Assembly: GCA_016700135.1 (NCBI GenBank)
Contig: CP065004.1
Span: 1,410,001-1,442,000 of the forward strand
Reading direction: 5' to 3'
Origin: Candidatus Saccharimonadota bacterium
GTDB taxonomy: Bacteria; Patescibacteriota; Microgenomatia; UBA1406; GWC2-37-13
DNA length: 32,000 nt
The notes beneath the pieces are model-generated. The model ran no database searches, was not told where the DNA came from, and was given only the letters and a program-made list of their open reading frames with translations. Made by a program: the position numbers and the translations under genes. This document shows, piece by piece, positions 2,729 to 28,016 of this stretch (its first letter is position 1; each line of letters starts with the position of its first letter).

Positions 2729-2865
2729 TATTTTTGATGACAAGCAATGTTCATGATTGTAACTGCGAAGATACAATTTTTATGCGACTTGGGAGGTGCG
2801 CAGCTGACAGATTCTGGTGAGCACGCCCACGGAGCAATATAAATTGTTATCGAGCAGTTACATTA

Positions 2866-2893
2866 CTGGATCCCGGATCAAGTCCGGGATGAC
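2866..2893 (-). repeat. Hairpin repeat X, copy X1
   Basis: Plus strand CTGGATCCCGGATCAAGTCCGGGATGAC is the reverse complement of GTCATCCCGGACTTGATCCGGGATCCAG. It has an 8-bp stem ATCCCGGA/TCCGGGAT and loop CTTGA. It is 28/28 identical to copy X2 at 26749-26776. Intergenic. Confidence 0.85.
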
Positions 2894-2900
2894 ATGATAA

Positions 2901-8962: not shown

Positions 8963-10087
8963 TTATGAAAAATAAATTGCCCGATACACTTCTTCAAGTT
9001 TGTGTTTCAGCTCATCAAGCGTGTAATTATTCTTAATCAGATAATCTGCATAAGCAATTGTCGGTCCCATGTGTGTATTCAAGAGTTCATCTAGATCGCG
9101 TTCTTCACCGAAAAGCCCTGATCGGGATTTTCGATGTTTGATCCGCTCAAATCGGATAGGTTTGTCTGCATAGACCGCAACGATAAAAATACGAGCTTTC
9201 GGAAATTCCTGTTTCAAATACTGATACTCTTCCCATGACCTCATTCCCTCAATGACCAGCAAGTTGTGTTTCCGGAGATTCTTTTCAATATCCGCTTTAC
9301 TGAGCTTTGCCATCGCTTCAAATCCGTATTTATCTCTCAATCCCTGTCTTATTTCGTGGTGCACTGCAAGAGTATGCGGCTTTTTTTGCTTTTCAATCTC
9401 TTTGTTGACAATATCAGAAAAACTGACAATGGGAAGCCCTTTTGCTGCAAAATACTGAGCAGCTTCCGTCTTGCCGGATCCCGGCATGCCGACAATGGCA
9501 ACAATAGTATTATTCTTCTGCTGCCATTTGAGAATCCGGTTTTTGATTTTCTGTTTTCCGAGAGATTTCAGAATGGACTGATTGACTTCTTCTATTGACC
9601 GGGTGCCGTCAATAGTTGAAAGCTTATCATTCTTTTCATAATATTCAAGCACCGGTGTAGTATGTGTCTTAAAAAGTTCAATTCGTTTCTTGATAGCTTC
9701 AATAGTGTCATCATCGCGCTGTTCGTTGCGATATGCCAGCCTCCACAATGCTTCCTTATCAGGAATATGGATATGGACAACCCGATCCACATTATTTTTG
9801 AATTTTTTTGCCTGTTTTAAAGTGCGGGGAAATCCGTCAAGGATATATCCCTTTTTGTATTCCGGACGGGACAGATAACTGTTTACTATCTCTATCGTCA
9901 GATCATCTGGAATCAGCAATCCGGAAGACATCAGAAGTTTTACTTTCTTGCCAAGAGGTGTCGTCTCTTTCGCAATATTGCGGAAGATATGACCGGTTGA
10001 CAGATACGGAATCTTCAATTGCTTCGAGAGCATGTTCCCCTGAGTTGACTTTCCTGATCCTTGTATTCCGATAAGAACAATCTTCAT
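8963..10087 (-). CDS. adk: Adenylate kinase (residues ~1-190) fused to a second P-loop nucleotide-kinase-like domain (residues ~193-374)
   Basis: 374-aa uninterrupted ORF. The N-domain has MKIVLIGIQGSGKSTQGNMLSKQLKIPYLSTGHIFR...YILDGFPRT... (Adk, short LID). The C-domain has a second Walker A, IVAIVGMPGSGKTEAAQYFAAKGLPIVSFSD...LLVIEGMRSWEEYQYLKQEF...RFERIKHRK. It resembles small archaeal-type dNMP/CoaE-like kinases; the family assignment is tentative. Confidence 0.85.
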   Translation of the reverse strand: MKIVLIGIQGSGKSTQGNMLSKQLKIPYLSTGHIFRNIAKETTPLGKKVKLLMSSGLLIPDDLTIEIVNSYLSRPEYKKGYILDGFPRTLKQAKKFKNNVDRVVHIHIPDKEALWRLAYRNEQRDDDTIEAIKKRIELFKTHTTPVLEYYEKNDKLSTIDGTRSIEEVNQSILKSLGKQKIKNRILKWQQKNNTIVAIVGMPGSGKTEAAQYFAAKGLPIVSFSDIVNKEIEKQKKPHTLAVHHEIRQGLRDKYGFEAMAKLSKADIEKNLRKHNLLVIEGMRSWEEYQYLKQEFPKARIFIVAVYADKPIRFERIKHRKSRSGLFGEERDLDELLNTHMGPTIAYADYLIKNNYTLDELKHKLEEVYRAIYFS

Positions 10088-13163: not shown

Positions 13164-13190
13164 GATAGCTATAAGCTAAAAGCTATTAAC
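13164..13190 (-). repeat. TAGCT-heptad intergenic motif, copy A (rplF-rplR spacer)
   Basis: Minus strand GTTAATAGCTTTTAGCTTATAGCTATC. The 11-mer TAGCTTATAGC is shared exactly with copies B and C. Confidence 0.75.
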
Positions 13191-13194
13191 TGAC

Positions 13195-13737
13195 TTATGC
13201 TGCCTTTGCCTTCTTTCCCGGTTTGACACGGACGTGTTCGCCTTCATAACGAATACCTTTTCCTTTGTATGCGTCAGGTTTCTTTACTGATTTGATCTGA
13301 TGGGCTACTTCTCCGACAAGCTGTTTATCGATTCCGGAGATAATAATAATATTGTTTCCCTCCATCGAAAGCTGGATTCCTTCCGGCGCCTTAAAAATTA
13401 CAGGATGCGAAAGTCCGAGTTTCAGATTCAGATCCCGTCCCTGCATTTTACCGTTAAAACCGGTTCCGACTATCTCAAGTCTCTTTGACCATCCCTGATC
13501 TACGCCTTTCACTGCATTTGCAATGATACTGCGATAAAGACCGTGAGAAGCTTTCTGTCTTTTTGCTTCTGATTTTCTTTCAATATACAGTGTGTTTTCT
13601 TCGTTTCGGATACTCAAAAAATGAGGGAGTTCAAAAGATAAATTTCCTTTTGATCCTTTTACCTGAACAACCTGACCTTGAATATCAACTTGTACAGAAC
13701 TCGGTATCTGAATTGGACTTTGGCCTATTTTAGACAT
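13195..13737 (-). CDS. rplF: 50S ribosomal protein L6
   Basis: 180 aa. MSKIGQSPIQIPSSVQVDIQGQVVQVKGSKGNLS... and ...PDAYKGKGIRYEGEHVRVKPGK. Confidence 0.95.
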   Translation of the reverse strand: MSKIGQSPIQIPSSVQVDIQGQVVQVKGSKGNLSFELPHFLSIRNEENTLYIERKSEAKRQKASHGLYRSIIANAVKGVDQGWSKRLEIVGTGFNGKMQGRDLNLKLGLSHPVIFKAPEGIQLSMEGNNIIIISGIDKQLVGEVAHQIKSVKKPDAYKGKGIRYEGEHVRVKPGKKAKAA

Positions 13738-14158: not shown

Positions 14159-14183
14159 ATTGCTATAAGCTAACAGCTAACTG
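14159..14183 (-). repeat. TAGCT-heptad intergenic motif, copy B (rpsS-rpsH spacer)
   Basis: Minus strand GCAGTTAGCTGTTAGCTTATAGCAAT, containing the shared 11-mer TAGCTTATAGC. Confidence 0.75.
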
Positions 14184-14191
14184 CTGATACA

Positions 14192-14476
14192 TTAGGTCTT
14201 ATCTGCCGTTCTCTTGGTAACCTTTCCGTGACCTCTAAAGGTGCGGGTCGGTGAAAATTCTCCCAGTCTGTGTCCGACCATTCCTTCTGAAACAAAGACT
14301 TCAATAAATTTTTTCCCGTTATGAACAGCTATTCTGTGTCCGACAAAGTCAGGATGGATCTGACAGGAACGTGCCCATGTCTGGATCGGTCTTCTCTCAC
14401 CGGATTCTTTTTGTTTTAGAACTTTTTGATGCAATTTTTCATCAATATATGGTCCTTTTTTTGCTGAACGAGTCAT
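14192..14476 (-). CDS. rpsS: 30S ribosomal protein S19, in a non-canonical position
   Basis: 94 aa. [21 protein letters not shown]...[53 protein letters not shown] closely parallels the S19 consensus (PRSLKKGPF...VHNG...MVGHKLGEF.PTR...GH). Confidence 0.93.
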
Positions 14477-17495: not shown

Positions 17496-17984
17496 TTATT
17501 TTGTAACTTCTTTAGTTGACTCCCCAGAGTTTTTAACTTCGGCGGCTTTCTTTTCCTTTTTAACAGTTTCCTTTTTTGCTAACGGCTTTTTTTCAGCTTT
17601 TTCCTTTTTGACTTCTTTCTGTTCTGCCTTTTTCTCGGCTTTCTTCGGCTGTGCTTTCTCTACTAATACAACCTTAATATGAGAATATCTTCTGACGATA
17701 GGCTTAGCCATTCCTTTTGAACCTGCTTTGAAGCGGCTCAGTTTTCTTCCTTCTTCAATTGTCAAAAGCTTAAATTGTAGCATATCAGCCTGTACTTTTA
17801 AAGAGTTTACAGCGTTCTGAATAGCTGAATTTAAAACTTTATAATATGTTTTTGCCGGCTTTGTCGGGGCATATAAGAGATAATCAAGTGCCTCTTTGGG
17901 AGACATTTTGAAAATATTATTCCGTATCATCCGCAACTTCTTTGGCGATACCTTCAGATTTTTTTGATATGTTACCGATTCCAT
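17496..17984 (-). CDS. rplV: 50S ribosomal protein L22 with a Lys/Glu-rich C-terminal tail
   Basis: The ORF track starts at 18008, overlapping rplB. The Met at 17982-17984 (MESVTYQKNLKVSPKKLRMIRNNI...) fits the L22 N-terminus. The tail is ...KAQPKKAEKKAEQKEVKKEKAEKKPLAKKETVKKEKKAAEVK... Confidence 0.9.
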   Translation of the reverse strand: MESVTYQKNLKVSPKKLRMIRNNIFKMSPKEALDYLLYAPTKPAKTYYKVLNSAIQNAVNSLKVQADMLQFKLLTIEEGRKLSRFKAGSKGMAKPIVRRYSHIKVVLVEKAQPKKAEKKAEQKEVKKEKAEKKPLAKKETVKKEKKAAEVKNSGESTKEVTK

Positions 17985-17988
17985 GAAA

Positions 17989-18762
17989 TTACTTTCTGCG
18001 TTGAACAATTAATTTATTACTCCATTTTTTCTTTGCTCGTGTGCGGACACCGCGTGCTTTTTTACCCCACGGAGTCTTTGCATGCATACCTTCACCGCTT
18101 CGTCCTTCTCCGCCTCCGTGAGGATGGGATCTCGGATTCTGAGCGGTACCCCGAACTGTCGGTCGGATTCCCATCAGTCTTTTTCGTCCTGCTTTTCCGA
18201 TTTCTTCATCTTTATGTTCGATATTTCCGACCCGTCCGACTGTTGCCCAACAACCTTTGCTGAACTTTCGAACTTCTCCTGATGTCAGTTTGACATGGAC
18301 ATAATGGCCGTCTTTAGCAATCACTGAACCGAATGTTCCGGCTCCGCGAATCATAATTCCTCCCTGTCCGGGATAGAGTTCAACATTGTGAACTTCGATA
18401 CCGACGGGGATAGCTGATAAAGGAAGAGCATTTCCTACAGTGATCTCTGCTTTTTCTGATGCGATCACTTTGTTTCCGATATTTAGATTGGCCGGATGAA
18501 GAATATATTTTCTTTCTCCGTCTTTGTATTCAACCAAAGCGATATCTGCATTTCTGTTCGGATCATATTCAATCCTGATCACCGTACCTTCGACATCTTT
18601 TTTATCTCTTTTAAAATCGATTACCCGATAATATCTTTTTTGTCGTTTACCTTGATGGCGAACCGAAATTTTTCCACTTGAGTCCCGCCCTGAATGTTTT
18701 TTCAGGATCTCAGTCAGTTTTTTTTCTGGTTTCTGTGTTGCTGGAATTTCGTGTTTAGCCAT
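17989..18762 (-). CDS. rplB: 50S ribosomal protein L2
   Basis: 257 aa. ...RIEYDPNRNADIALVEYKDGERKYILHP... and ...MGIRPTVRGTAQNPRSHPHGGGEGRS. Confidence 0.96.
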   Translation of the reverse strand: MAKHEIPATQKPEKKLTEILKKHSGRDSSGKISVRHQGKRQKRYYRVIDFKRDKKDVEGTVIRIEYDPNRNADIALVEYKDGERKYILHPANLNIGNKVIASEKAEITVGNALPLSAIPVGIEVHNVELYPGQGGIMIRGAGTFGSVIAKDGHYVHVKLTSGEVRKFSKGCWATVGRVGNIEHKDEEIGKAGRKRLMGIRPTVRGTAQNPRSHPHGGGEGRSGEGMHAKTPWGKKARGVRTRAKKKWSNKLIVQRRK

Positions 18763-18780
18763 GTTTGTAATAATAATTTC

Positions 18781-18805
18781 TAATAGCTATAAGCTATTAG
18801 CTAAT
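18781..18805 (-). repeat. TAGCT-heptad intergenic motif, copy C (rplW-rplB spacer)
   Basis: Minus strand ATTAGCTAATAGCTTATAGCTATTA. Contains the shared 11-mer TAGCTTATAGC and can form an 8-bp hairpin, TAATAGCT-tat-AGCTATTA. Confidence 0.75.
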
Positions 18806-19777: not shown

Positions 19778-20461
19778 TTAAGAAATATCTTTTGTTTTTA
19801 CTTCTACAACACTTCCTGTGTTGCCGGGAATAAGTCCCTTGACTGTTATTGAATTTTCACTGACTGCAAGAACCTGCAGGTTTTGGACTGTGATGCGGTC
19901 TCCGCCCATCTGTCCTGCCATTCTCTGTCCTTTGAATACTCTTCCGGGGGTTGTCGTGGAACCGACTGAACCCGGAGCACGAAGTCTGTCTGACTGTCCG
20001 TGAGTTTTCGGTCCTCCTCGGAAATTATGTCTTCGGACAACACCCTGGAATCCTTTTCCTTTAGAGGTTCCCGAAATGTCTACGATATCTCCTACTGTAA
20101 AAATGACTTCAGGCTTCACTTCATCTCCGATAAACAATTTCTGTTCACTGATCTGGACTCCTTTTTTCCCTTCTTCTTCTACGAATGTTACTGCTTTCTT
20201 ATCAAGATCCACTCGGATCTCTTTTAAAAAGCGAAGCGGGGTTTTGATCCCCGCTTTTTTCAGTTGTCCTTCTACTGGTTTGGCGATATTTTTTCGTGTT
20301 CCGAAACCGAGTTTGATAGCTGCATAGCCATCTTGTTCCGGTGTAAAAATACCGACGACAAAACAGGGAGAAGTGTTGATGACGGTCACAGGGACCATAA
20401 CACCTTCAGGTGTAAACATTTGTGATTGCGAATTTTTCTCTCCGAGTATAAAACCTGCCAT
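19778..20461 (-). CDS. rplC: 50S ribosomal protein L3
   Basis: 227 aa. ...GDIVDISGTSKGKGFQGVVRRHNFRGGPKTHGQSDRLRAPGSVG...GRVFKGQRMAGQMG. Confidence 0.95.
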   Translation of the reverse strand: MAGFILGEKNSQSQMFTPEGVMVPVTVINTSPCFVVGIFTPEQDGYAAIKLGFGTRKNIAKPVEGQLKKAGIKTPLRFLKEIRVDLDKKAVTFVEEEGKKGVQISEQKLFIGDEVKPEVIFTVGDIVDISGTSKGKGFQGVVRRHNFRGGPKTHGQSDRLRAPGSVGSTTTPGRVFKGQRMAGQMGGDRITVQNLQVLAVSENSITVKGLIPGNTGSVVEVKTKDIS

Positions 20462-20499
20462 GTTTTTATTTAACTTATGTGTATTTTCTAACTCTATAC

Positions 20500-20523
20500 A
20501 AAAAAAGACCCCAGATTGGGGCC
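20500..20523 (-). terminator. Intrinsic terminator-like hairpin plus U7 tract, 38 nt upstream of the rplC start
   Basis: Minus-strand RNA GGCCCCA-AUC-UGGGGUC followed by UUUUUUU (20500-20506). One stem pair is G.U on the minus strand but an A/C mismatch on the plus strand, supporting minus-strand function. Confidence 0.6.
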
Positions 20524-20545
20524 GTTATATCAGGCTTCAATCTGG
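20511..20545 (-). promoter_or_regulatory. Candidate antiterminator stem competing with the terminator
   Basis: On the minus strand, CCAGATTG (complement of 20538-20545) pairs perfectly with CAATCTGG (complement of 20511-20518). The latter covers the end of the 5' arm, the loop and the start of the 3' arm of the terminator, so the two folds are mutually exclusive. Confidence 0.45.
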
Positions 20546-20550
20546 TTAAA

Positions 20551-20592
20551 TTAGAAATGTAACTGTTTCTTACTAACCATTAACAATTGCAT
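20551..20592 (-). other. Candidate 13-codon leader ORF (MQLLMVSKKQLHF) in the rplC leader
   Basis: ATG CAA TTG TTA ATG GTT AGT AAG AAA CAG TTA CAT TTC TAA. The ATG is 9 nt after the -10 hexamer, so essentially leaderless. The stop codon is 5 nt before the antiterminator 5' arm. No SD. Purely positional evidence. Confidence 0.25.
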
Positions 20593-20601
20593 GTGTTTAG
20601 A

Positions 20602-20630
20602 ATTATATACTATAGTTACGCTTAGTTCAA
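20602..20630 (-). promoter_or_regulatory. Sigma-70-like promoter inside the rpsJ-rplC gap
   Basis: Minus strand TTGAAC (20625-20630), 17-nt spacer, TATAAT (20602-20607). A chance match is possible in an AT-rich context. Confidence 0.45.
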
Positions 20631-20730: not shown

Positions 20731-20752
20731 CTCCAAAAGAGAACTCTTGGAG
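20731..20752 (-). terminator. Hairpin plus U-rich tail downstream of rpsJ (weak terminator candidate)
   Basis: Minus strand CTCCAA-gagttctctt-TTGGAG followed by ATTTCCATTTTG. Confidence 0.3.
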
Positions 20753-20759
20753 CTTTACA

Positions 20760-20777
20760 TCTGTACAATTGTACAGA
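20760..20777. repeat. Perfect 18-nt palindrome TCTGTACAATTGTACAGA
   Basis: Read directly, 13 nt 3' of the rpsJ stop. Contains CTGT-N8-ACAG. Confidence 0.8.
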
Positions 20778-20789
20778 ATCCGGCGCGCC

Positions 20790-21098
20790 TTACATCTTGA
20801 CGGCAACCTCAACTCCGGCCGGGAGTTCAAGATGCATCAAAGAATCAATAGTCTGATTCGTAGGATTGACGATGTCAAGAAGACGTTTGTGGATTTTAAG
20901 CCCAAAGTGTTCTCTTGCATCCTTGTCGGTAAATGGCGATTTGTTCACCACATACACTTCCTTTTTTGTAGGCAAAGGAATAGGTCCTATGATGGAAGCA
21001 CCTGTCTTTATGGCTGTATCAACCAGCTTCTGACAAGTCTCATCGATCAGACGATGATCGTATGACTTAAGCCGTATTCTTATTCTTCCTTTAGGCAT
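20790..21098 (-). CDS. rpsJ: 30S ribosomal protein S10
   Basis: 102 aa. ...IRIRLKSYDHRLIDETCQKLVDTAIKTGASIIGPIPLPTKKEVYVVNKSPFTDKDAREHF....H.RLLDI. Confidence 0.95.
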   Translation of the reverse strand: MPKGRIRIRLKSYDHRLIDETCQKLVDTAIKTGASIIGPIPLPTKKEVYVVNKSPFTDKDAREHFGLKIHKRLLDIVNPTNQTIDSLMHLELPAGVEVAVKM

Positions 21099-22447: not shown

Positions 22448-22476
22448 ATAATATAAAGTATTCCAATAAAAGTCAA
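22448..22476 (-). promoter_or_regulatory. Candidate tuf promoter P1, abutting the IS end
   Basis: Minus strand TTGACT (22471-22476), 17 nt, TATTAT (22448-22453). The -35 overlaps the transposase stop codon and lies next to the target-site duplication. Confidence 0.3.
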
Positions 22477-23555
22477 GAGAATGTATGAGTTCCATACATA
22501 TGGCACTCTTTAGGTAAAATAGATAATAGGTAATCCATAGGTGAAATATTGTTCAGGCTTTTGTGAACTCGCTTTGTATTGTACCAGACGAGGTATTCAA
22601 TAAGGTGACGATTGAATGATCCGATACCGGTCCACTTGGTATAGATGTAGGGGTTCATAAATTCTTCCTGGAGTGTTCTGTTTGCTCGCTCAATAAAGGC
22701 ATTGATCTTGGGACATCTGGGGTAGATAAAGAGGTGTGGGATATTGTTTTCTTCCAGATAGTCATGGAAGTTTCCCAGATACTCGAGGCCGTTATCTGTT
22801 TGTATGGTTTTTATACCATCTTGTATTGGGTATACTAGTTCCAGTCTTCTCATAAAATCAGCACCGTTTCGGCTGTTGAGTTTTGAGTATCCGTAGGAGA
22901 ACTGGAATTTGAGTTTGATGTCCACTGCATTGAAGACATACAGCTTGATTCCGTGTACAAACTTCGTGATGGTATCAATCTCAATGTATCCGGTATCTTC
23001 CACCTTGGGAGACCGCTTGACCTTCTGTCGGTACTTTACTTTCCGTTTTGCAAAGCCACTTGCTGGATTGTGATAGATCCGGTAGGTCTTGCGCTGCAGG
23101 TTGTGTCTTTTGATCACTTTTCCAATGGTTGACTCAGATATAGTTGAAATTCCTTCCTGTAGGCAATACTCATCAAGTAAGGGCTTGATCTTCTCCTTTC
23201 CCAAACAAAAGTATTGTTCTCGAATCTCTTTGATAAAGGATATGACCTTCGGGTGAGTCTCCATACGTCGGGGTGTCTTTGGCTTGGTTGTCTCTGGTAT
23301 CAGGCTATCCAACTGCCCTTCTGAATCTCGCCGTCTCTTCCTCCATCGAAACAATGTCCTTCGTGATATCCCATATGCATCAACTGCAGCTTGTATCCCG
23401 TACTTCTCTGCAAATGTCAGAACATCGTTTCTGATTTGTGCTACATCTGACTGATTGTAGTCTGATAGAGATCGTATCTTTTTCATAAGATCTCTATTGT
23501 ACTGCCAGTCATAACTCCTAATTACTCGAAGCTGATCTCCTCCCCATTTACTCAT
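22473..23555 (-). CDS. DDE transposase / integrase-core (rve) protein, IS481-like
   Basis: 360 aa. The N-terminal HTH region is ...ISRRTLFRWRKRRR... The catalytic region is ...IEIDTITKF..., ...IQTDNGLEY... and ...NAFIERANRTLQEE... (D, D, E), followed by ...YNTKRVHKSLN. The stop codon lies 7-9 nt beyond the inferred IS end. Confidence 0.9.
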   Translation of the reverse strand: MSKWGGDQLRVIRSYDWQYNRDLMKKIRSLSDYNQSDVAQIRNDVLTFAEKYGIQAAVDAYGISRRTLFRWRKRRRDSEGQLDSLIPETTKPKTPRRMETHPKVISFIKEIREQYFCLGKEKIKPLLDEYCLQEGISTISESTIGKVIKRHNLQRKTYRIYHNPASGFAKRKVKYRQKVKRSPKVEDTGYIEIDTITKFVHGIKLYVFNAVDIKLKFQFSYGYSKLNSRNGADFMRRLELVYPIQDGIKTIQTDNGLEYLGNFHDYLEENNIPHLFIYPRCPKINAFIERANRTLQEEFMNPYIYTKWTGIGSFNRHLIEYLVWYNTKRVHKSLNNISPMDYLLSILPKECHMYGTHTFS

Positions 23556-23674: not shown

Positions 23675-26600
23675 GTGACCACTATGGCAACCGACTCGGT
23701 AAAACTGAATACATCGCAACAGCAGGCTGTCGAATACCACAAAGGACCGCTTCTTATTGTGGCCGGAGCCGGTACCGGCAAAACGACTACACTCGTCGAA
23801 AAAATCAAGTATCTCATCAAGAATGACCATGCAAAGCCTGAGGAAATTCTTTGCCTGACTTTCACCGACAAAGCGGCCTATGAAATGGAAGAACGTGTAG
23901 ACCGTGCCATGCCGTACGGATATTTTCAGATGTGGATCTCGACATTTCACAAGTTTGCAGACGAAATCCTGCGCGACGATATTTATCATCTCGGACTTAA
24001 TCCAGGTTATGATCTGATGACTCAGGCACAGTCAATCCTCTTTCTCAAAAAAAATCTCTTTCACCTCAATCTCAAATACTACCGTCCTGTCAGCAATCCC
24101 ACAAAATTTGTCGAAGGGCTGCTGCAGCATTTCTCCAGGCTTCATGATGAAGATATTTCTCCTGAGGAGTATAGTAAGTGGGTAAAAAAACTTTCGAAAT
24201 ATTCTCATTCCGTCCGCCGGCTGGCGGATGATCCGGAATCCAGGAACAAAAAAACTGGATCCCTGGTCATGCCTGGGATGACAACGGAACAAAATATAAG
24301 CACTGAAGAAATCCAGCAATACCAGGAACTTTCCGATGCATACGCTACCTATCAAAAGCTCAAAATCGAACATGACGTCATGGATTTTGACGATCTTATT
24401 TATTATCTGATCAAACTTTTCCGGGAAAGACCGAATGTTTTAAAGCAGTATCAAAACAAATTTAAGTATGTATTGGTTGACGAATTCCAGGATACGAATA
24501 TCGCACAGTACGAACTCATAAAGCTCCTCTGTCCCATAAAAACCAATCCGAATTTGACCGTCGTCGGAGATGATTCTCAGGCAATCTATAAATTCCGCGG
24601 AGCATCTGTCTCCAACATTATGACCTTCATGGAGGACTATCCGCAGGCAAAGCAGATAAGTCTTGTAGATAATTACCGATCCAATCAAACCATACTTGAT
24701 CATGCCTATAATCTCATCCAAAACAATAATCCCGATACCCTTGAAAGTAAATTGGGTATCTCAAAAGAGCTGGTCGGACATAAAAAAAATATAAAAGAAG
24801 CCGTACAGTTTGAGTTGTTTGCACACGGTGATCAGGAAGCGGATTGGATTGCAGAGTGTATCGCCGGTTACTTGCAGGATAAAACCTATACCTTCCAGGA
24901 TTTTGCAATTTTGGTAAGAGCGAACAATCACAGCGATCCGATCATCAATGCCTTGAAGCGTGAAGGTATTCCCTTTCAGTTTTTAGGGCCGGGAACGTTA
25001 TTTAAGCAACCTGAGGTCAAAGATCTGATCGCTTATCTGCAAGTTCTCGCTGATCTGAATGATACAGTTTCACTATACCGCGTTCTTTCCATGGATCATT
25101 TCGGAATTGATGAACAGGACCTGGTTCTCTATCTCTCCTTTGCGAAAAAAATTTCCCTTTCTCTTTTCCAGTCACTTGAAGTGGCACTTTCCTTTTTCCA
25201 TGAAGATTGGTGGAGAGAGGAGTTTGAAGTTTATCGCGAACATTTACCGCTCGTAAAAGAAGAAACAAAAGAGAAACTAATCCAGATAATCTCCATGATA
25301 AAAAAGCATCTCACCCGACTCCGCAAGGATTCAGCCGGTGAGATCGTGTTCCAGTTCCTGGAAGATACCGAATACCTCAAGAAACTCAGCAATCCTGAAA
25401 ATGAGTATGATCAGCGAAGAACATTGAACATAACGAAGTTTTTCCAGAAACTAAAAAGTATGGAGAATGAAATTGAAGACAGTTCGGTTTTTGCCGCAGT
25501 CGAGTATATCAATATGAGTCTGGAGATGGGTGAATCTCCTTTGGCATCCGAGTCTGATGCGGTTCAGACGAATGCTGTAAATATTCTCACGGTGCACGGT
25601 GCAAAAGGTTTGGAGTTTCCTGTCGTTTTTCTCCCGAATCTTATAAACGGCCGTTTTCCTACCCGCCGCAGACGGGAACAGATTCCGATACCTGATGCTC
25701 TGATAAAGGAGACAATGCCGAGCGGAGATTATCATATTCAGGAAGAAAGGCGGCTGTTTTATGTGGGGATCACCCGTGCAAAAGACAGGCTCTTTTTGTC
25801 CGCTTCTGAAATATACGGTGAAGGAGTACGGAAACAACGCATATCGCCGTTTGTAGCCGAAACAATCGGTGCCGAAAAAGTCACCGGCAAATCCGCAAAG
25901 CAATCCGAACAAAAAGAACAGCTATCCATTTTTGATTTTAAGAAAAAGGAAGAAGATCCTCCGATACCAATCCCGACCGAGGTTAAAAATCTTTCATACA
26001 GCCAGATCAGTACCTATGAACTCTGTCCCCTGAAATACAAATATCAGTACGTACTGAAAATCCCGACAGGACCCCACGGTGCGGCTTCATTCGGAAGCTC
26101 TGTGCACAACGCTCTGCAGAAGTTCTATCAGTTGTTTACGAAAGACAATGAAGTCGGGCTCACACATCTTCTGAATCTGCTTGAATCTTCCTGGATCCCG
26201 GTCGGCTATACCTCCCGGGAGGAACAGACGAAACAAAAAGAAGAAGCACGTCAGATGCTCGAAAACTATTTTCATTCTTTTCATACTCCTGAGATTGCAG
26301 TCAAAGATCTGGAGAAACTCTTCAAAATCAAAGTAGGAAGTGATGTATGTCTTACCGGAAAAATTGATCGGGTGGATGAAAAGGCTGACGGAGCGATCGA
26401 GATCATCGACTACAAAACCGGCAACATGCCTGATGAAAAGAAACTCAGGAAAGATATGCAGCTTGCCATATATGCAATGGCTGCAAATGACTACGGATTG
26501 TATCGCAAACCGATTGAAAAAATTAACCTTTCCTTCTACTATCTCGCCCATCGTGAAAAGGTAACGGTTACAAGAAACGAAGAAGATATTCACGATGTGA

Positions 26601-26713: not shown

Positions 26714-26748
26714 AAGTAATAATGAGTGTTACGCAAACGTACTTCGTT

Positions 26749-26776
26749 GTCATCCCGGACTTGATCCGGGATCCAG
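26749..26776 (+). repeat. Hairpin repeat X, copy X2
   Basis: GTCATCCCGGACTTGATCCGGGATCCAG, 36 nt after the helicase stop. Identical to X1. Followed by a half copy, ATCCTGAACTTTGA (26781-26794). Confidence 0.85.
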
Positions 26777-26791
26777 TGTAATCCTGAACTT

Positions 26792-27544: not shown

Positions 27545-27555
27545 GTTGTTTTTTA

Positions 27556-27583
27556 CTGGTTCCCAGGTCAAGCCTGGGATAAC
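27556..27583 (-). repeat. Hairpin repeat X, copy X4 (slightly degenerate)
   Basis: Plus strand CTGGTTCCCAGGTCAAGCCTGGGATAAC is the reverse complement of GTTATCCCAGGCTTGACCTGGGAACCAG. Confidence 0.8.
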
Positions 27584-27611
27584 AGACAAGTAAATTAAAT
27601 ATATTATAACT

Positions 27612-27932: not shown

Positions 27933-27939
27933 TATTGTG

Positions 27940-27967
27940 CTGGATCCCAGGTCAAGCCTGGGATGAC
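27940..27967 (-). repeat. Hairpin repeat X, copy X5
   Basis: Plus strand CTGGATCCCAGGTCAAGCCTGGGATGAC is the reverse complement of GTCATCCCAGGCTTGACCTGGGATCCAG (stem ATCCCAGG/CCTGGGAT), 7 nt upstream of the GIY-YIG ATG. Confidence 0.85.
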
Positions 27968-28016
27968 AATGCACCTGTAAAGAATTTCAAGCGGATTATA
28001 AACATTAACTTCTCCC

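What the first reader, a model, noticed from the sequence alone, without database searches (positions are those of the whole stretch)
20500..20630. Candidate transcription attenuator (promoter, 13-codon ORF, antiterminator/terminator) splitting rpsJ from rplC
Seen: rpsJ and rplC are normally adjacent, but here they are 328 bp apart. Reading the minus strand, the gap contains four elements in order. First is TTGAAC-17 nt-TATAAT (20630-20602). Second is a short ORF, MQLLMVSKKQLHF (20592-20551), whose stop is 5 nt before CCAGATTG. Third is an 8-bp stem, CCAGATTG/CAATCTGG. Fourth is the hairpin GGCCCCA-AUC-UGGGGUC plus U7 (20523-20500), 38 nt before the rplC ATG. CAATCTGG overlaps the terminator hairpin, so the two folds exclude each other. 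Inference: roughly 30 downstream genes (rplC to rpsI) must read through this terminator. This suggests regulated attenuation, either ribosome-mediated via the leader ORF or protein-mediated, as L4 acts on the E. coli S10 leader. I do not recognise this location as a described r-protein leader. It could instead be a ~95-nt independent sRNA.
Basis: partly seen in the sequence, partly recalled or inferred. Interest (0 to 1): 0.7.

Follow-up and report, generated by a model that had tools for sequence, protein, structure and literature searches.

The report
Leader attenuator of the rplC operon
The gap between the S10 and L3 ribosomal-protein genes holds a conserved control element (promoter, tiny reading frame, two competing RNA folds), found throughout one group of uncultured CPR bacteria, that probably decides whether about 28 ribosome-related genes get transcribed.

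Summary
The element is not a quirk of this genome, which is Roizmanbacteria-like (CPR, Microgenomates). The same unit lies directly upstream of rplC in 50 of 51 related metagenome loci that carry rplC. The unit is: a TTGAC[CA]-17-TATAAT promoter, an ATG 7-11 nt later, a variable hairpin, CCRGAUUGG, a short linker, then GCCCCAAUCUGGGGC plus a U-tract.

It travels with rplC even when rpsJ is kilobases away. The U-tract ends 0-15 nt before the rplC ATG in 22 of 48 loci, so rplC must be transcribed through the terminator.

The short ORF is supported. It varies from 4 to 19 codons and has no conserved peptide. Yet its stop lies in frame 1-13 nt before the antiterminator arm in 39 of 42 members, against 3 and 9 of 42 in the other frames.

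The terminator hairpin also resembles hairpin HD of the E. coli S10 leader, which L4 control requires.

Best reading: a transcription attenuator driven by translation of a near-leaderless mini-ORF, possibly with added L4 feedback. It matches no Rfam family. I rate it a new variant of a known kind. Regulation itself is inferred, not shown.

The parts
20790..21098 (-). rpsJ (S10), the last gene of the upstream tuf-rpsJ unit. This is context, not part of the element.
   Evidence: NCBIfam S10 equivalog, E 1e-42. In about 10 related loci rpsJ is followed by opposite-strand genes and rplC is absent.
20731..20752 (-). Hairpin CTCCAAGAG-TTCT-CTTTTGGAG followed by AUUUCCAUUUU. Probably a weak terminator for tuf-rpsJ.
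   Evidence: Listed by the terminator scan. The stem is kept in L001 and L002. It is absent from most metagenome relatives, where the promoter follows rpsJ directly.
20602..20630 (-). Sigma-70-type promoter TTGAAC-17-TATAAT. The -35 box is 20630-20625 and the -10 box is 20607-20602.
   Evidence: Scores 10 of 12. A TTGAC[CA]/TTGAA-type -35 box, 16-17 nt spacer and TATAAT are present in all 47 distinct family members listed. The sequence is 100% identical in L002, although L3 there is only 84% identical.
20551..20592 (-). Leader mini-ORF MQLLMVSKKQLHF plus its stop. The ATG lies 9 nt after the -10 box, so the transcript is leaderless or has a 5' UTR of about 2 nt.
   Evidence: An ATG lies 7-11 nt after the -10 box in 42 of 47 members. 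The stop ends 1-13 nt (median 7) before the antiterminator arm in 39 of 42, against 3 and 9 of 42 in the other frames. With one representative per cluster the count is 10 of 12, against a shuffle null of 0.16, P = 5e-7.
20543..20579 (-). 5' hairpin inside the ORF (UGGUUAG..AGAAA-loop-UUUCU..UUAACCA). Its 3' strand overlaps CCA of the antiterminator arm. It may act as a pause or anti-antiterminator hairpin.
   Evidence: Part of the MFE and centroid folds. The differences from L002 fall in its loop. Every relative has some hairpin here (mean z -0.95 against shuffles), but there is no alignable consensus.
20538..20545 (-). Antiterminator 5' arm CCAGATTG (family consensus CCRGAUUGG).
   Evidence: Nearly invariant across 46 sequences. 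It pairs with 20511-20518 in 94.7% of cells.
20507..20523 (-). Terminator hairpin GGCCCCA-AUC-UGGGGUC. It contains the antiterminator 3' arm CAATCTGG (20518-20511).
   Evidence: Listed. 99.1% of cells are paired, with compensatory changes at the stem base and 0 of 500 shuffles reaching the observed score. A hairpin-only model built from it scores the E. coli S10-leader hairpins HD (15.3 bits) and HB (14.7 bits). The best score in 193 kb of control sequence is 10.7 bits.
20500..20506 (-). U7 tract of the intrinsic terminator.
   Evidence: Seen. A T-run of at least 5 is present in all members.
20462..20499 (-). 38-nt A/U-rich stretch between the terminator and the rplC ATG. It holds no promoter and no Shine-Dalgarno sequence.
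   Evidence: No promoter-like site is found here. In relatives this stretch has a median of 16 nt and is 0-15 nt in 22 of 48 loci. No SD is found upstream of any gene in the window.
19778..20461 (-). rplC (L3), the first gene of the controlled operon.
   Evidence: NCBIfam L3 equivalog, E 3.5e-63. The element sits directly upstream of rplC in every locus that has it.

Best explanation
This is the leader and attenuator of the large rplC-to-rpsI ribosomal-protein operon, and it is conserved across a Roizmanbacteria-like clade of CPR bacteria.

Proposed mechanism:
1. A strong promoter starts a transcript at, or about 2 nt before, an AUG that opens a mini-ORF (13 codons here).
2. The ORF contains a hairpin. 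Its stop codon lies 5 nt before CCAGAUUG (20545-20538).
3. CCAGAUUG can pair with CAAUCUGG (20518-20511), which spans the loop and both strands of the terminator hairpin. This antiterminator and the terminator therefore exclude each other.
4. If no ribosome has reached the end of the mini-ORF when polymerase makes the terminator region, the antiterminator forms first and polymerase reads on into rplC.
5. If a ribosome has translated the ORF and sits at its stop codon, its footprint covers the first bases of the antiterminator arm. The GC hairpin plus U7 then forms and transcription ends after about 95 nt.

The peptides carry no conserved 'regulatory' codons. The sensed quantity is therefore most likely general translation capacity: prompt initiation and elongation on a nascent, nearly leaderless RNA. 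That would give negative feedback of ribosome availability on ribosomal-protein transcription.

A second, non-exclusive input is likely. The terminator hairpin resembles the L4-binding hairpin HD of the E. coli S10 leader, so free L4 may stabilise it.

Shown: the anatomy, its conservation, the ORF geometry, and the bistable energetics. Inferred: the transcription start site, translation of the ORF, the direction of regulation, and any L4 binding.
For: Anatomy is at the stated coordinates.

Conservation and linkage:
- The same unit occurs in L001 and L002 and in 50 of 51 metagenome loci that carry rplC. S10 there is 83-95% identical and L3 50-61% identical.
- It stays next to rplC when rpsJ is 0.5-2 kb away (L088, L104, L112, L121, L128).
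- It is absent after rpsJ where rplC is elsewhere.
- There is one copy per window.
- There is no room for another promoter: the distance from U-tract to rplC ATG has a median of 16 nt and is 0-6 nt in a dozen loci.

Structures:
- The terminator covaries.
- The antiterminator is 94.7% paired against at most 57% when slid, with A-U / G-U / G-C at one pair and a G-C to A-U switch in L080.
- The two states differ by only about 3 kcal/mol on average.

ORF:
- The ATG is at least 90% conserved and lies 7-11 nt after the -10 box in 42 of 47 members.
- An in-frame stop triplet lies in the last 18 nt before the arm in 40 of 42 members, against 6 and 15 of 42 in the other frames. Frame 0 is open up to that point in 39 of 42, against 15 and 25.
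- Members with an extra inserted hairpin (17-19 codons) keep both the frame and the stop position.
- With clusters as the unit, P = 5e-7.
- The stop-to-arm distance (median 7 nt) matches classical leader-peptide attenuators, where a ribosome at the stop masks about 13 nt on either side (PMC13236596).
- No gene in the window has a Shine-Dalgarno sequence, so a 5'-proximal AUG is a plausible start.

L4 input:
- HD is required for L4 control, and its loop and loop-proximal pairs are the conserved, L4-implicated part (PMC10578931; PMC3616713 section 14).
- A model built only from the CPR hairpins ranks HD first in E. coli and a second enterobacterium (15.3 bits), and also finds HD in Aeromonas and two other Gammaproteobacteria.
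- The best score in 193 kb of control sequence is 10.7 bits.
Against: - There are no expression data: no transcription start site, no 3' end, and no proof that the ORF is translated.
- With 7-9 nt between the -10 box and the ATG, the start site may lie about 2 nt upstream, so the RNA may not be strictly leaderless.
- Antiterminator pairing rests on near-invariant sequence. Covariation does not exceed the shuffles.
- That invariance is more than a plain attenuator needs and hints at a sequence-specific binder.
- A GUUCGGGA motif in the ORF region is read in three different frames in different members, so selection acts on the RNA there, not on the peptide.
- Five members lack the 5' ATG: L060 has a downstream ATG, L085 and L089 have only a TTG ORF in another frame, and L117 and L123 are truncated.
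- The 5' hairpin has no common structure.
- Read-through when translation is poor runs opposite to stringent-type control.
- In this window the 5' hairpin overlaps the antiterminator arm by 3 nt, so the 'no ribosome' state may terminate here rather than read through.
Confidence: 0.55

Rival explanations
1. A purely protein-mediated attenuator. Free ribosomal protein L4, or another protein of the operon such as L3, binds the conserved hairpin and/or the CCRGAUUGG arm and tips the balance toward termination, as L4 does with NusA on the E. coli S10 leader. On this reading the mini-ORF is incidental or only auxiliary.
For: - The most conserved part of the family is the hairpin loop plus loop-proximal pairs and the arm complementary to it. 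This is more conservation than pairing alone requires.
- The hairpin resembles E. coli hairpin HD (GCUCCC-AAUC-GGGGAGC). HD is required for L4 control, and its loop region is implicated in L4 binding (PMC10578931; PMC3616713).
- HD in other Gammaproteobacteria shares the pattern YCC-RAUY-GGR.
- The hairpin-only model gives 15.3 bits for HD against a control maximum of 10.7.
- rplD is the second gene of the controlled operon.
- L123 keeps a similar hairpin (ACCCCAAUUUGGGGGU) without any antiterminator arm.
- An L4-assigned leader upstream of rplC-rplD-rplW-rplB is proposed in Archaeoglobi (PMC7247131).
- Protein-dependent attenuators control other ribosomal-protein operons in B. subtilis (PMC4538822, PMC1865079).
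Against: - It does not explain why the ATG and the in-frame stop position are conserved across 4-19-codon ORFs.
- CCCC/GGGG stems are common in terminators, so the specific similarity reduces to a 4-5-nt loop.
- HD loops vary among Gammaproteobacteria (AAUC, AAUU, GAUU, GAUCUGU).
- In E. coli, HD is separate from the terminator hairpin HE, and the leader precedes rpsJ.
- No binding data exist.
Confidence: 0.22
2. An independent small RNA gene of about 95 nt, with its own promoter and terminator, that acts in trans. It may also encode a micro-peptide, and happens to sit upstream of rplC.
For: - It is a complete promoter-to-terminator unit that is strongly conserved.
- Attenuator-derived RNAs and leader peptides can act in trans (PMC6614838, PMC7298713).
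Against: - It always sits immediately upstream of rplC, on the same strand, with the U-tract 0-15 nt from the rplC ATG in 22 of 48 loci. rplC therefore depends on read-through from this promoter.
- The conserved alternative pairing that destroys the terminator has no purpose in a plain sRNA.
- The peptides are not conserved.
- There are no extra copies elsewhere.
Confidence: 0.06
3. An unregulated arrangement. The hairpin is simply a leaky terminator that ends tuf-rpsJ transcripts and sets a fixed read-through level. The rplC promoter happens to lie upstream of it, and nothing is sensed.
For: - In most relatives the promoter follows the rpsJ stop within 10-40 nt, with no other terminator in between, so rpsJ transcripts would also end here.
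- L117 and L123 show that reduced versions exist.
Against: - The unit follows rplC, not rpsJ, when the two genes are separated.
- The antiterminator arm and the ORF geometry are conserved at a cost that a fixed leaky terminator would not need.
- In this window rpsJ has its own terminator-like hairpin.
Confidence: 0.07

Closest known systems
Classical ribosome-mediated leader-peptide attenuators (trpL, hisL, leuL, ilv leaders; Mtb ilvB1 leader, PMC13236596)
   Same: A short ORF near the 5' end of the leader, with a hairpin inside or after it. The stop codon lies a few nt before the 5' arm of an antiterminator, and that antiterminator excludes an intrinsic terminator just upstream of the first structural gene.
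   Different: There is no run of regulatory codons and no conserved peptide. The genes controlled are ribosomal proteins, not amino-acid biosynthesis. The ORF is leaderless or nearly so and lacks a Shine-Dalgarno sequence. In most members the 5' hairpin does not share a strand with the antiterminator, so 'no translation' should give read-through rather than superattenuation.
E. coli / Gammaproteobacteria S10 leader (L4-interacting RNA; Zengel and Lindahl; PMC3616713)
   Same: A transcription attenuator at the head of the operon that encodes L3 and L4. It has a small C-rich/G-rich hairpin with an RAUY loop (HD: GCUCCC-AAUC-GGGGAGC; here GCCCC-AAUCU-GGGGC), and the 5' hairpins are variable.
   Different: The E. 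coli leader lies upstream of rpsJ, whereas this one lies upstream of rplC. Here a single hairpin serves as the terminator, instead of HD followed by a separate NusA-dependent hairpin HE. There is no HG element over a start codon. This element has a mini-ORF and an explicit antiterminator, which the E. coli leader lacks. The S10 leader is reported to be confined to Gammaproteobacteria.
Translation-stress-sensing uORF attenuators (whiB7/wblC leader, cited in PMC13236596; antibiotic-responsive leaders such as vmlR and bmrCD, from my own knowledge)
   Same: A uORF without amino-acid-specific codons. Slowed or absent translation of it favours the antiterminator and read-through, so general translation status is what is sensed.
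   Different: Those leaders control resistance or regulator genes, whereas this one controls the core ribosomal-protein operon. No antibiotic or stress response has been tested here.
Leaderless short-ORF attenuators of mycobacteria (polycysteine sORFs; bioRxiv 10.1101/834739)
   Same: A leaderless 5'-AUG mini-ORF serves as the first cistron and regulatory sensor of an operon.
   Different: Those are cysteine-codon sensors reported to act at the level of translation. Here there is no codon bias, and an intrinsic terminator is involved.
L4 r-leader candidate of Archaeoglobi, and protein-dependent ribosomal-protein attenuators of B. subtilis (PMC7247131; PMC4538822; PMC1865079)
   Same: The Archaeoglobi candidate has the same position, upstream of rplC-rplD-rplW-rplB. 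The B. subtilis L20 and L10(L12)4 leaders use the same terminator/antiterminator logic for ribosomal-protein autoregulation.
   Different: There is no sequence or structure match (no Rfam hit), the lineage is different, and those leaders have no ORF.

Membership tests
Leader-peptide (ribosome-mediated) transcription attenuators | Short ORF in the leader with a conserved start | tested here: met
   An ATG lies 7-11 nt after the -10 box in 42 of 47 members, and the A, T and G columns are at least 90% conserved. Translation itself is not shown.
Leader-peptide (ribosome-mediated) transcription attenuators | Stop codon placed so that a terminating ribosome masks the 5' arm of the antiterminator | tested here: met
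   The stop ends 1-13 nt (median 7) before the arm in 39 of 42 members, against 3 and 9 of 42 in the other frames. P = 5e-7 on cluster representatives.
Leader-peptide (ribosome-mediated) transcription attenuators | Mutually exclusive antiterminator and intrinsic terminator | tested here: met
   The two share the segment CAAUCUGG. The terminator is 99.1% paired with covariation. The antiterminator is 94.7% paired but without significant covariation. The energies are within about 3 kcal/mol.
Leader-peptide (ribosome-mediated) transcription attenuators | Run of regulatory codons for the amino acid whose pathway is controlled | tested here: not met
   Across 36 distinct peptides there is no conserved residue beyond a hydrophobic N-terminus, and the longest identical run is 2 in most. 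The downstream genes encode ribosomal proteins.
S10 leader / L4-interacting RNA (Gammaproteobacteria) | Located in the 5' UTR of rpsJ, with HG overlapping the rpsJ start | tested here: not met
   The element lies downstream of rpsJ and upstream of rplC. It follows rplC when the two genes are unlinked.
S10 leader / L4-interacting RNA (Gammaproteobacteria) | Hairpin HD with a conserved loop and loop-proximal pairs | tested here: inconclusive
   A model built from the CPR hairpin scores E. coli HD at 15.3 bits, above the control maximum of 10.7 bits in 193 kb. The model is tiny, however, and the similarity amounts to a C/G stem plus a 4-5-nt loop.
S10 leader / L4-interacting RNA (Gammaproteobacteria) | Separate NusA-dependent terminator hairpin HE downstream of HD | tested here: not met
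   Only one hairpin precedes the U-tract.
S10 leader / L4-interacting RNA (Gammaproteobacteria) | L4 binds the leader and stimulates termination | not testable with these tools
   This needs binding and in vitro transcription assays.
Any curated Rfam family (including ribosomal-protein leaders and riboswitches) | Match to a covariance model at or near the gathering score | tested here: not met
   There are no hits at gathering score in 32 kb. The best sub-threshold hit is NsiR1 at 24.8 against a threshold of 39 bits, which covers only the terminator. Rfam also lacks the E. coli S10 leader, so this result does not bear on that family.
Translation-stress-sensing uORF attenuators (whiB7/wblC type) | Read-through induced by impaired translation | not testable with these tools
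   The architecture is compatible, but no expression data are available.
Mobile or repeated element (MITE/REP) inserted between rpsJ and rplC | Multiple copies, or terminal repeats and target duplications | tested here: not met
   No other copy is found in the window or in the loci. The element is always at the same position relative to rplC.

The most novel reading that the evidence does not exclude
The mini-ORF attenuator is a direct sensor of ribosome availability. A nascent, nearly leaderless RNA is captured by idle ribosomes. When they translate its roughly 11 codons in time, they shut off transcription of about 28 ribosomal-protein and translation genes. When ribosomes are scarce or slowed, the antiterminator wins. 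This would be an autoregulatory logic for ribosome synthesis different from the free-ribosomal-protein feedback of model bacteria, possibly layered on an L4-binding hairpin that arose independently of, or shares ancestry with, the E. coli S10 leader.
Probability: 0.3. Interest if true: 0.85.

Novelty: new variant of a known kind. Interest (0 to 1): 0.68.

Why it matters
Almost all knowledge of how bacteria match ribosomal-protein output to need comes from E. coli and Bacillus, and the E. coli RNA elements are reported to be narrowly distributed (PMC3616713). Nothing comparable is described for CPR bacteria, which have reduced ribosomes and few regulators.

This element sits at the single entry point of nearly the whole ribosomal-protein gene set and is conserved across a clade. 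It combines a leader-ORF geometry with a hairpin resembling the L4 target.

If the ORF mechanism is right, ribosome production is throttled by translation itself. If the L4 link is right, L4 autoregulation is older, or more often reinvented, than thought.

Either way it gives a compact cis-element of about 130 nt that can be tested in vitro for organisms that cannot be grown, and a new RNA family to add to annotation pipelines.

Tried and rejected
- **Rfam** at gathering score and at E <= 10: nothing relevant.
- **tRNA/tmRNA scan:** none found.
- **Mobile-element or repeat origin:** the spacer has no other copy in the window.
- **rRNA mimicry.** E. coli 16S 1302-1310 is an exact CCGGAUUGG, and 23S 2603-2618 (GUUCGGUCCCUAUCUG) looks like GUUCGGGAGCCCCAAUCUG in L062 and L092. 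However, the partner strands do not match, several equally weak look-alikes exist, and no rRNA from this clade was available. I treat these as unsupported leads.
- **DNA-level operator** (inverted repeat CCAGATTGG...CCAATCTGG bound by a dimer): rejected, because the spacing between the arms varies by about 20 nt.
- **boxA-like antitermination site:** only a weak UUUAAC resemblance in one subtype, so dropped.
- **Common structure for the 5' hairpin:** RNAalifold finds none. Each member has a hairpin, but they do not align.
- **AUG sequestered in a stem:** true in only 18 of 42 minimum-energy folds.
- **Amino-acid-specific sensing:** no codon runs found. The Phe_leader hit has E = 5.7 and is meaningless.
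- **HC-HD complementarity in Enterobacteria as a homologue of the antiterminator:** seen in E. coli and L141 but not in other Gammaproteobacteria, so probably coincidence.
- **Homologous leaders in other CPR lineages or other phyla:** neither covariance model finds any. Those lineages have different long spacers.
- **Original L4 papers** (PMC177949, PMC1370278, PMC4692380, PMC11633770): not held. Statements about them come second-hand from PMC10578931, PMC3616713 and PMC8632103, or from my memory, and are marked as such.
Full report
**1.

- On the minus strand, rpsJ ends at 20790 and rplC starts at 20461, a gap of 328 nt.
- The gap holds, in order:
  - TTGAAC-17-TATAAT (20630-20602);
  - the ORF MQLLMVSKKQLHF (ATG 20592, stop 20553-20551);
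  - CCAGATTG (20545-20538), five bases after the stop;
  - the hairpin GGCCCCA-ATC-TGGGGTC (20523-20507), which contains CAATCTGG (20518-20511);
  - T7 (20506-20500), then 38 nt to the rplC ATG.
- The consensus scans list this promoter among the three best in 12 kb, and list the hairpin among the terminator-like sites.
- Folding the roughly 100-nt leader gives a 5' hairpin inside the ORF plus the terminator. Folding the whole spacer gives the CCAGAUUG/CAAUCUGG helix instead.
- With either helix enforced the energies are -20.9 and -21.0 kcal/mol.
rplC, rplD, rplW, rplB and a continuous run of ribosomal-protein, secY, adk, map, rpoA, rplM and rpsI genes lie downstream.

**2. Organism and background**

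- The closest genomes are a MAG with L3 96% identical (L001) and Candidatus Roizmanbacteria UBA1450 with L3 84% identical (L002).
- In other phyla the rpsJ-rplC gap is usually 12-100 nt.
- In the clade around this window a long gap is the rule. Among 80 metagenome loci with S10 83-95% identical, the gap is 94-330 nt in most and 0.5-2 kb in several.
- In about ten loci rpsJ is followed by opposite-strand genes and rplC is elsewhere.

**3. The element is a conserved family tied to rplC**

- Nearly every spacer contains the same parts in the same order:
  - a -35 box TTGAC[CA] or TTGAA-type, a 16-17-nt spacer, and TATAAT;
  - an ATG 7-11 nt later;
  - 35-70 nt of variable sequence that folds into some hairpin;
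  - CCRGAUUGG, then a 5-30-nt linker;
  - RGCCCCAAUCUGGGGCY and a U-tract.
- It is present in 50 of the 51 metagenome loci where rplC is in view. L074 lacks it and L123 keeps only the promoter and hairpin.
- Where extra DNA separates rpsJ from rplC (L088, L104, L112, L120, L121, L128), the unit sits next to rplC.
- A covariance model of the 3' half finds one copy in the window (53.9 bits; next best 12.4). It finds further members that were not used to build it (L067, L073, L106, L120, L126).
- The model finds nothing in 48 loci from other phyla, including other CPR lineages.
- The U-tract ends a median of 16 nt before the rplC ATG, and 0-15 nt before it in 22 of 48 loci. No promoter can fit in between, so rplC and the roughly 28 genes behind it depend on read-through from the leader promoter.
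- This rules out 'just an sRNA' and 'just the rpsJ terminator' as complete explanations.

**4. The two competing helices**

- On a 46-sequence alignment the terminator stem is paired in 99.1% of cells. It shows compensatory changes at its base (A-U, G-C, G-U, C-G, U-A), and 0 of 500 shuffles reach the observed score.
- The antiterminator is paired in 94.7% of cells, against at most 57% when the partner is slid.
- The antiterminator is nearly invariant in sequence. Only one pair varies among A-U, G-U and G-C, there is one G-C to A-U switch, and the statistics do not beat the shuffles. Pairing potential is therefore conserved but not proven by covariation.
- Across the family the terminator state is about 3 kcal/mol more stable on average. 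That is the situation expected for a kinetically decided switch.
- The 5' arm is transcribed first, and GAUUGG can pair with CCAAUC before the 3' strand of the terminator exists. An unobstructed arm should therefore favour read-through. This last step is inference.

**5. The short ORF is under selection as an ORF**

- An ATG lies 7-11 nt after the -10 box in 42 of 47 distinct members, and its three columns are at least 90% conserved.
- Read from that ATG, the frame stays open, and the stop then ends 1-13 nt (median 7, interquartile range 5-9) before the antiterminator arm in 39 of 42 members. In the +1 and +2 frames this holds for 3 and 9 of 42.
- Split into two components, both are specific to frame 0:
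  - a stop triplet in the last 18 nt before the arm: 40 of 42 in frame 0, against 6 and 15;
  - frame open up to that window: 39 of 42 in frame 0, against 15 and 25.
- ORF length ranges from 4 to 19 codons. Members that acquired an extra hairpin (L099, L111, L112, L125) kept both the frame and the stop position.
- As a conservative test I took one representative from each of 12 single-linkage clusters. Ten of 12 show the feature, against a dinucleotide-shuffle expectation of 0.16 (binomial P = 5e-7).
- The peptides themselves are not conserved. There are 36 distinct sequences, rich in Leu and Phe as expected for U-rich RNA, with no codon runs.
- A recurrent GUUCGGGA motif is read in three different frames. 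What is selected is the act and extent of translation, not the product.
- The distance from the stop to the arm matches classical leader-peptide attenuators, where a ribosome at the stop occludes about 13 nt on each side (PMC13236596).
- None of 33 genes in the window has a Shine-Dalgarno sequence. A 5'-terminal or near-terminal AUG is therefore a reasonable initiation site. Whether the start site is the A of the ATG or about 2 nt upstream cannot be decided from sequence.

**6. A link to L4**

- I looked at the paradigm, the E. coli S10 leader. Its hairpin HD reads GCUCCC-AAUC-GGGGAGC, close to GCCCC-AAUCU-GGGGC here. Hairpin HB (GGUUC-AAUCU-GAACC) has the same loop.
- HD is required for L4-mediated regulation (PMC10578931, citing Zengel and Lindahl 1996).
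- From memory, and not checked here: Stelzl et al. 2003 reported that a small hairpin contributes most of the L4 binding energy.
- I fetched S10 leaders from other Gammaproteobacteria. Their HD hairpins share the pattern YCC-RAUY-GGR:
  - CUCCCAAUUGGGGGG (L139)
  - GUUCCCAAUUGGGGAAC (L143)
  - GUUCCCGAUUGGGGAAC (L140)
  - CCCCCCGAUCUGUGGGGG (L137, Aeromonas)
  - GAUUCCAAUUGGGAAUC (L138, Paraferrimonas)
  - GUUUUCGAUUUGAAAAC (L133, Haemophilus ducreyi)
- A 17-position model built only from the CPR hairpins ranks HD first in E. coli and in a second enterobacterium (15.3 bits) and HB next (14.7 bits). It also picks out HD in Aeromonas and two others at 9-11 bits.
- The best score in 193 kb of control ribosomal-protein loci, counting both strands with filters off, is 10.7 bits.
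- The resemblance is therefore unlikely to be chance, roughly 1e-3 for a 172-nt leader. It still rests on a C/G stem plus a 4-5-nt loop.
- Rfam has no model of the S10 leader, so its silence says nothing on this point.

**7. Mechanism**

- I commit to a transcription attenuator (about 0.85 for 'regulated or at least conditional termination in the rplC leader').
- Within that, the ORF geometry is the strongest specific evidence, so the lead model is ribosome-mediated. A ribosome that has translated the mini-ORF and sits at its stop covers the start of CCRGAUUGG, the terminator forms, and the transcript ends at about 95 nt. Without a timely ribosome the antiterminator forms and the operon is transcribed.
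- With no regulatory codons, the signal would be general translation capacity, giving negative feedback of ribosome availability on ribosomal-protein synthesis.
- The hairpin inside the ORF may act like the trp 1:2 pause hairpin, synchronising polymerase and ribosome. This is inference.
- In this window's subtype the hairpin overlaps the arm by 3 nt. The untranslated state may therefore terminate here, and only a ribosome stalled early in the ORF would give read-through, as in trp.
- L4 binding to the HD-like terminator hairpin is a plausible second input, and it would explain the unusual sequence invariance.
- Because the hairpin lies 0-40 nt from the rplC start, it could also gate rplC translation, as L4 does for rpsJ in E. 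coli. This is speculation.

**8. Comparison and novelty**

- The element works like a leader-peptide attenuator but fails that family's defining feature of regulatory codons for a biosynthetic pathway.
- It resembles the L4-responsive S10 leader in one hairpin and in purpose, but fails its location and two-hairpin architecture.
- It is closest in logic to translation-stress uORF attenuators (whiB7/wblC type) and to leaderless sORF regulators of mycobacteria, but it controls the core ribosomal-protein operon.
- It matches no Rfam family, and the 2020 survey of ribosomal leaders lists nothing for CPR (PMC7247131).
- I rate it a new variant of a known kind.

**9. Limits**

- Everything rests on sequence. 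There are no transcript ends, no translation data and no binding data.
- The family was sampled from one clade, because only one metagenome scan and one genome scan were allowed.
- Antiterminator covariation is weak.
- The GUUCGGGA motif and the invariance of the arm remain unexplained by the ribosome model alone.

Noticed in passing
window 20761-20776 (-): A perfect 16-bp palindrome, CTGTACAATTGTACAG, lies 13 nt after the rpsJ stop. It is identical in L001, and L002 has TGTACAACTGTACA. It could be a protein-binding site. Most metagenome relatives lack it.
   Followed up: partly
window 20731-20752 (-): Hairpin CTCCAAGAG/CTTTTGGAG followed by AUUUCCAUUUU. This is a likely weak terminator of tuf-rpsJ and is kept in L001 and L002.
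   Followed up: partly
window 2865-2894, 24254-24283, 26748-26777, 27551-27584, 27935-27968: A REP-like 30-nt hairpin repeat, ACTGGATCCCGGATCAAGTCCGGGATGACA, occurs in five copies in both orientations, in intergenic positions.
   Followed up: no
window 18780-18800, 13169-13208, 14163-14202: Related palindromic motifs (CTAATAGCTATAAGCTATTAG) lie in short intergenic gaps between ribosomal-protein genes. Their function is unknown.
   Followed up: no
window, 30 nt upstream of 33 start codons: No gene has a Shine-Dalgarno sequence. The upstream regions are A/U-rich, with a recurrent AGAAATT about 12-20 nt before the start.
   Followed up: no
window 14192-14476 (-) and 17496-18762 (-): rpsS (S19) sits between rplE and rpsH, where rpsN usually lies, and rplB is followed directly by rplV. 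L22 carries a roughly 55-aa Lys-rich C-terminal extension.
   Followed up: partly
window 22473-23555 (-): An IS481-family transposase gene lies immediately upstream of tuf, where rpsL-rpsG-fusA would normally be.
   Followed up: no
window 8963-10087 (-): Adenylate kinase is 374 aa long, with a second, dephospho-CoA-kinase-like domain fused at its C-terminus.
   Followed up: no
window 20234-20256 (both strands): A terminator-like hairpin, AAGCGGGGAUCAAAACCCCGCUU followed by CGCUUUUUAA, lies inside the rplC coding sequence about 205 nt after its start.
   Followed up: no
L035 2400-2500; L024 and L040 2230-2500; L031; L032: Other CPR lineages also have long rpsJ-rplC spacers, but with different content. 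L035 has a promoter-like site and GGCGCCAUAAGGCGCU plus U5 nine nt before rplC. L024 and L040 share another conserved structured stretch. Independent rplC leaders may be common in CPR.
   Followed up: partly
L061, L068, L071, L121 and others (5' hairpin loop); L062, L092, L102 (linker next to the terminator): The conserved motif GUUCGGGA appears either in the loop of the 5' hairpin or in the linker, and is read in three different frames. It could be a second contact site for a protein. It remains unexplained.
   Followed up: partly
L131 (E. coli rrsH) 16S nt 1302-1310; 23S nt 2603-2618: E. coli 16S contains an exact CCGGAUUGG, and 23S contains GUUCGGUCCCUAUCUG, which resembles the linker-plus-hairpin of some members. 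This is possibly chance. rRNA from this clade was not available.
   Followed up: partly
L070, L090, L093, L095, L098, L100, L110, L113, L116, L118: In these relatives rpsJ is followed by opposite-strand genes, including a sigma-70-like ORF and membrane proteins. rpsJ and rplC are therefore genuinely unlinked in a sublineage.
   Followed up: partly
L073 62-109 and 158-1063: On this short contig the leader and a divergent rplC (42% identity, residues 1-155) lie upstream of rpsJ, the reverse of the usual order. This may be a rearrangement or an assembly artefact.
   Followed up: no
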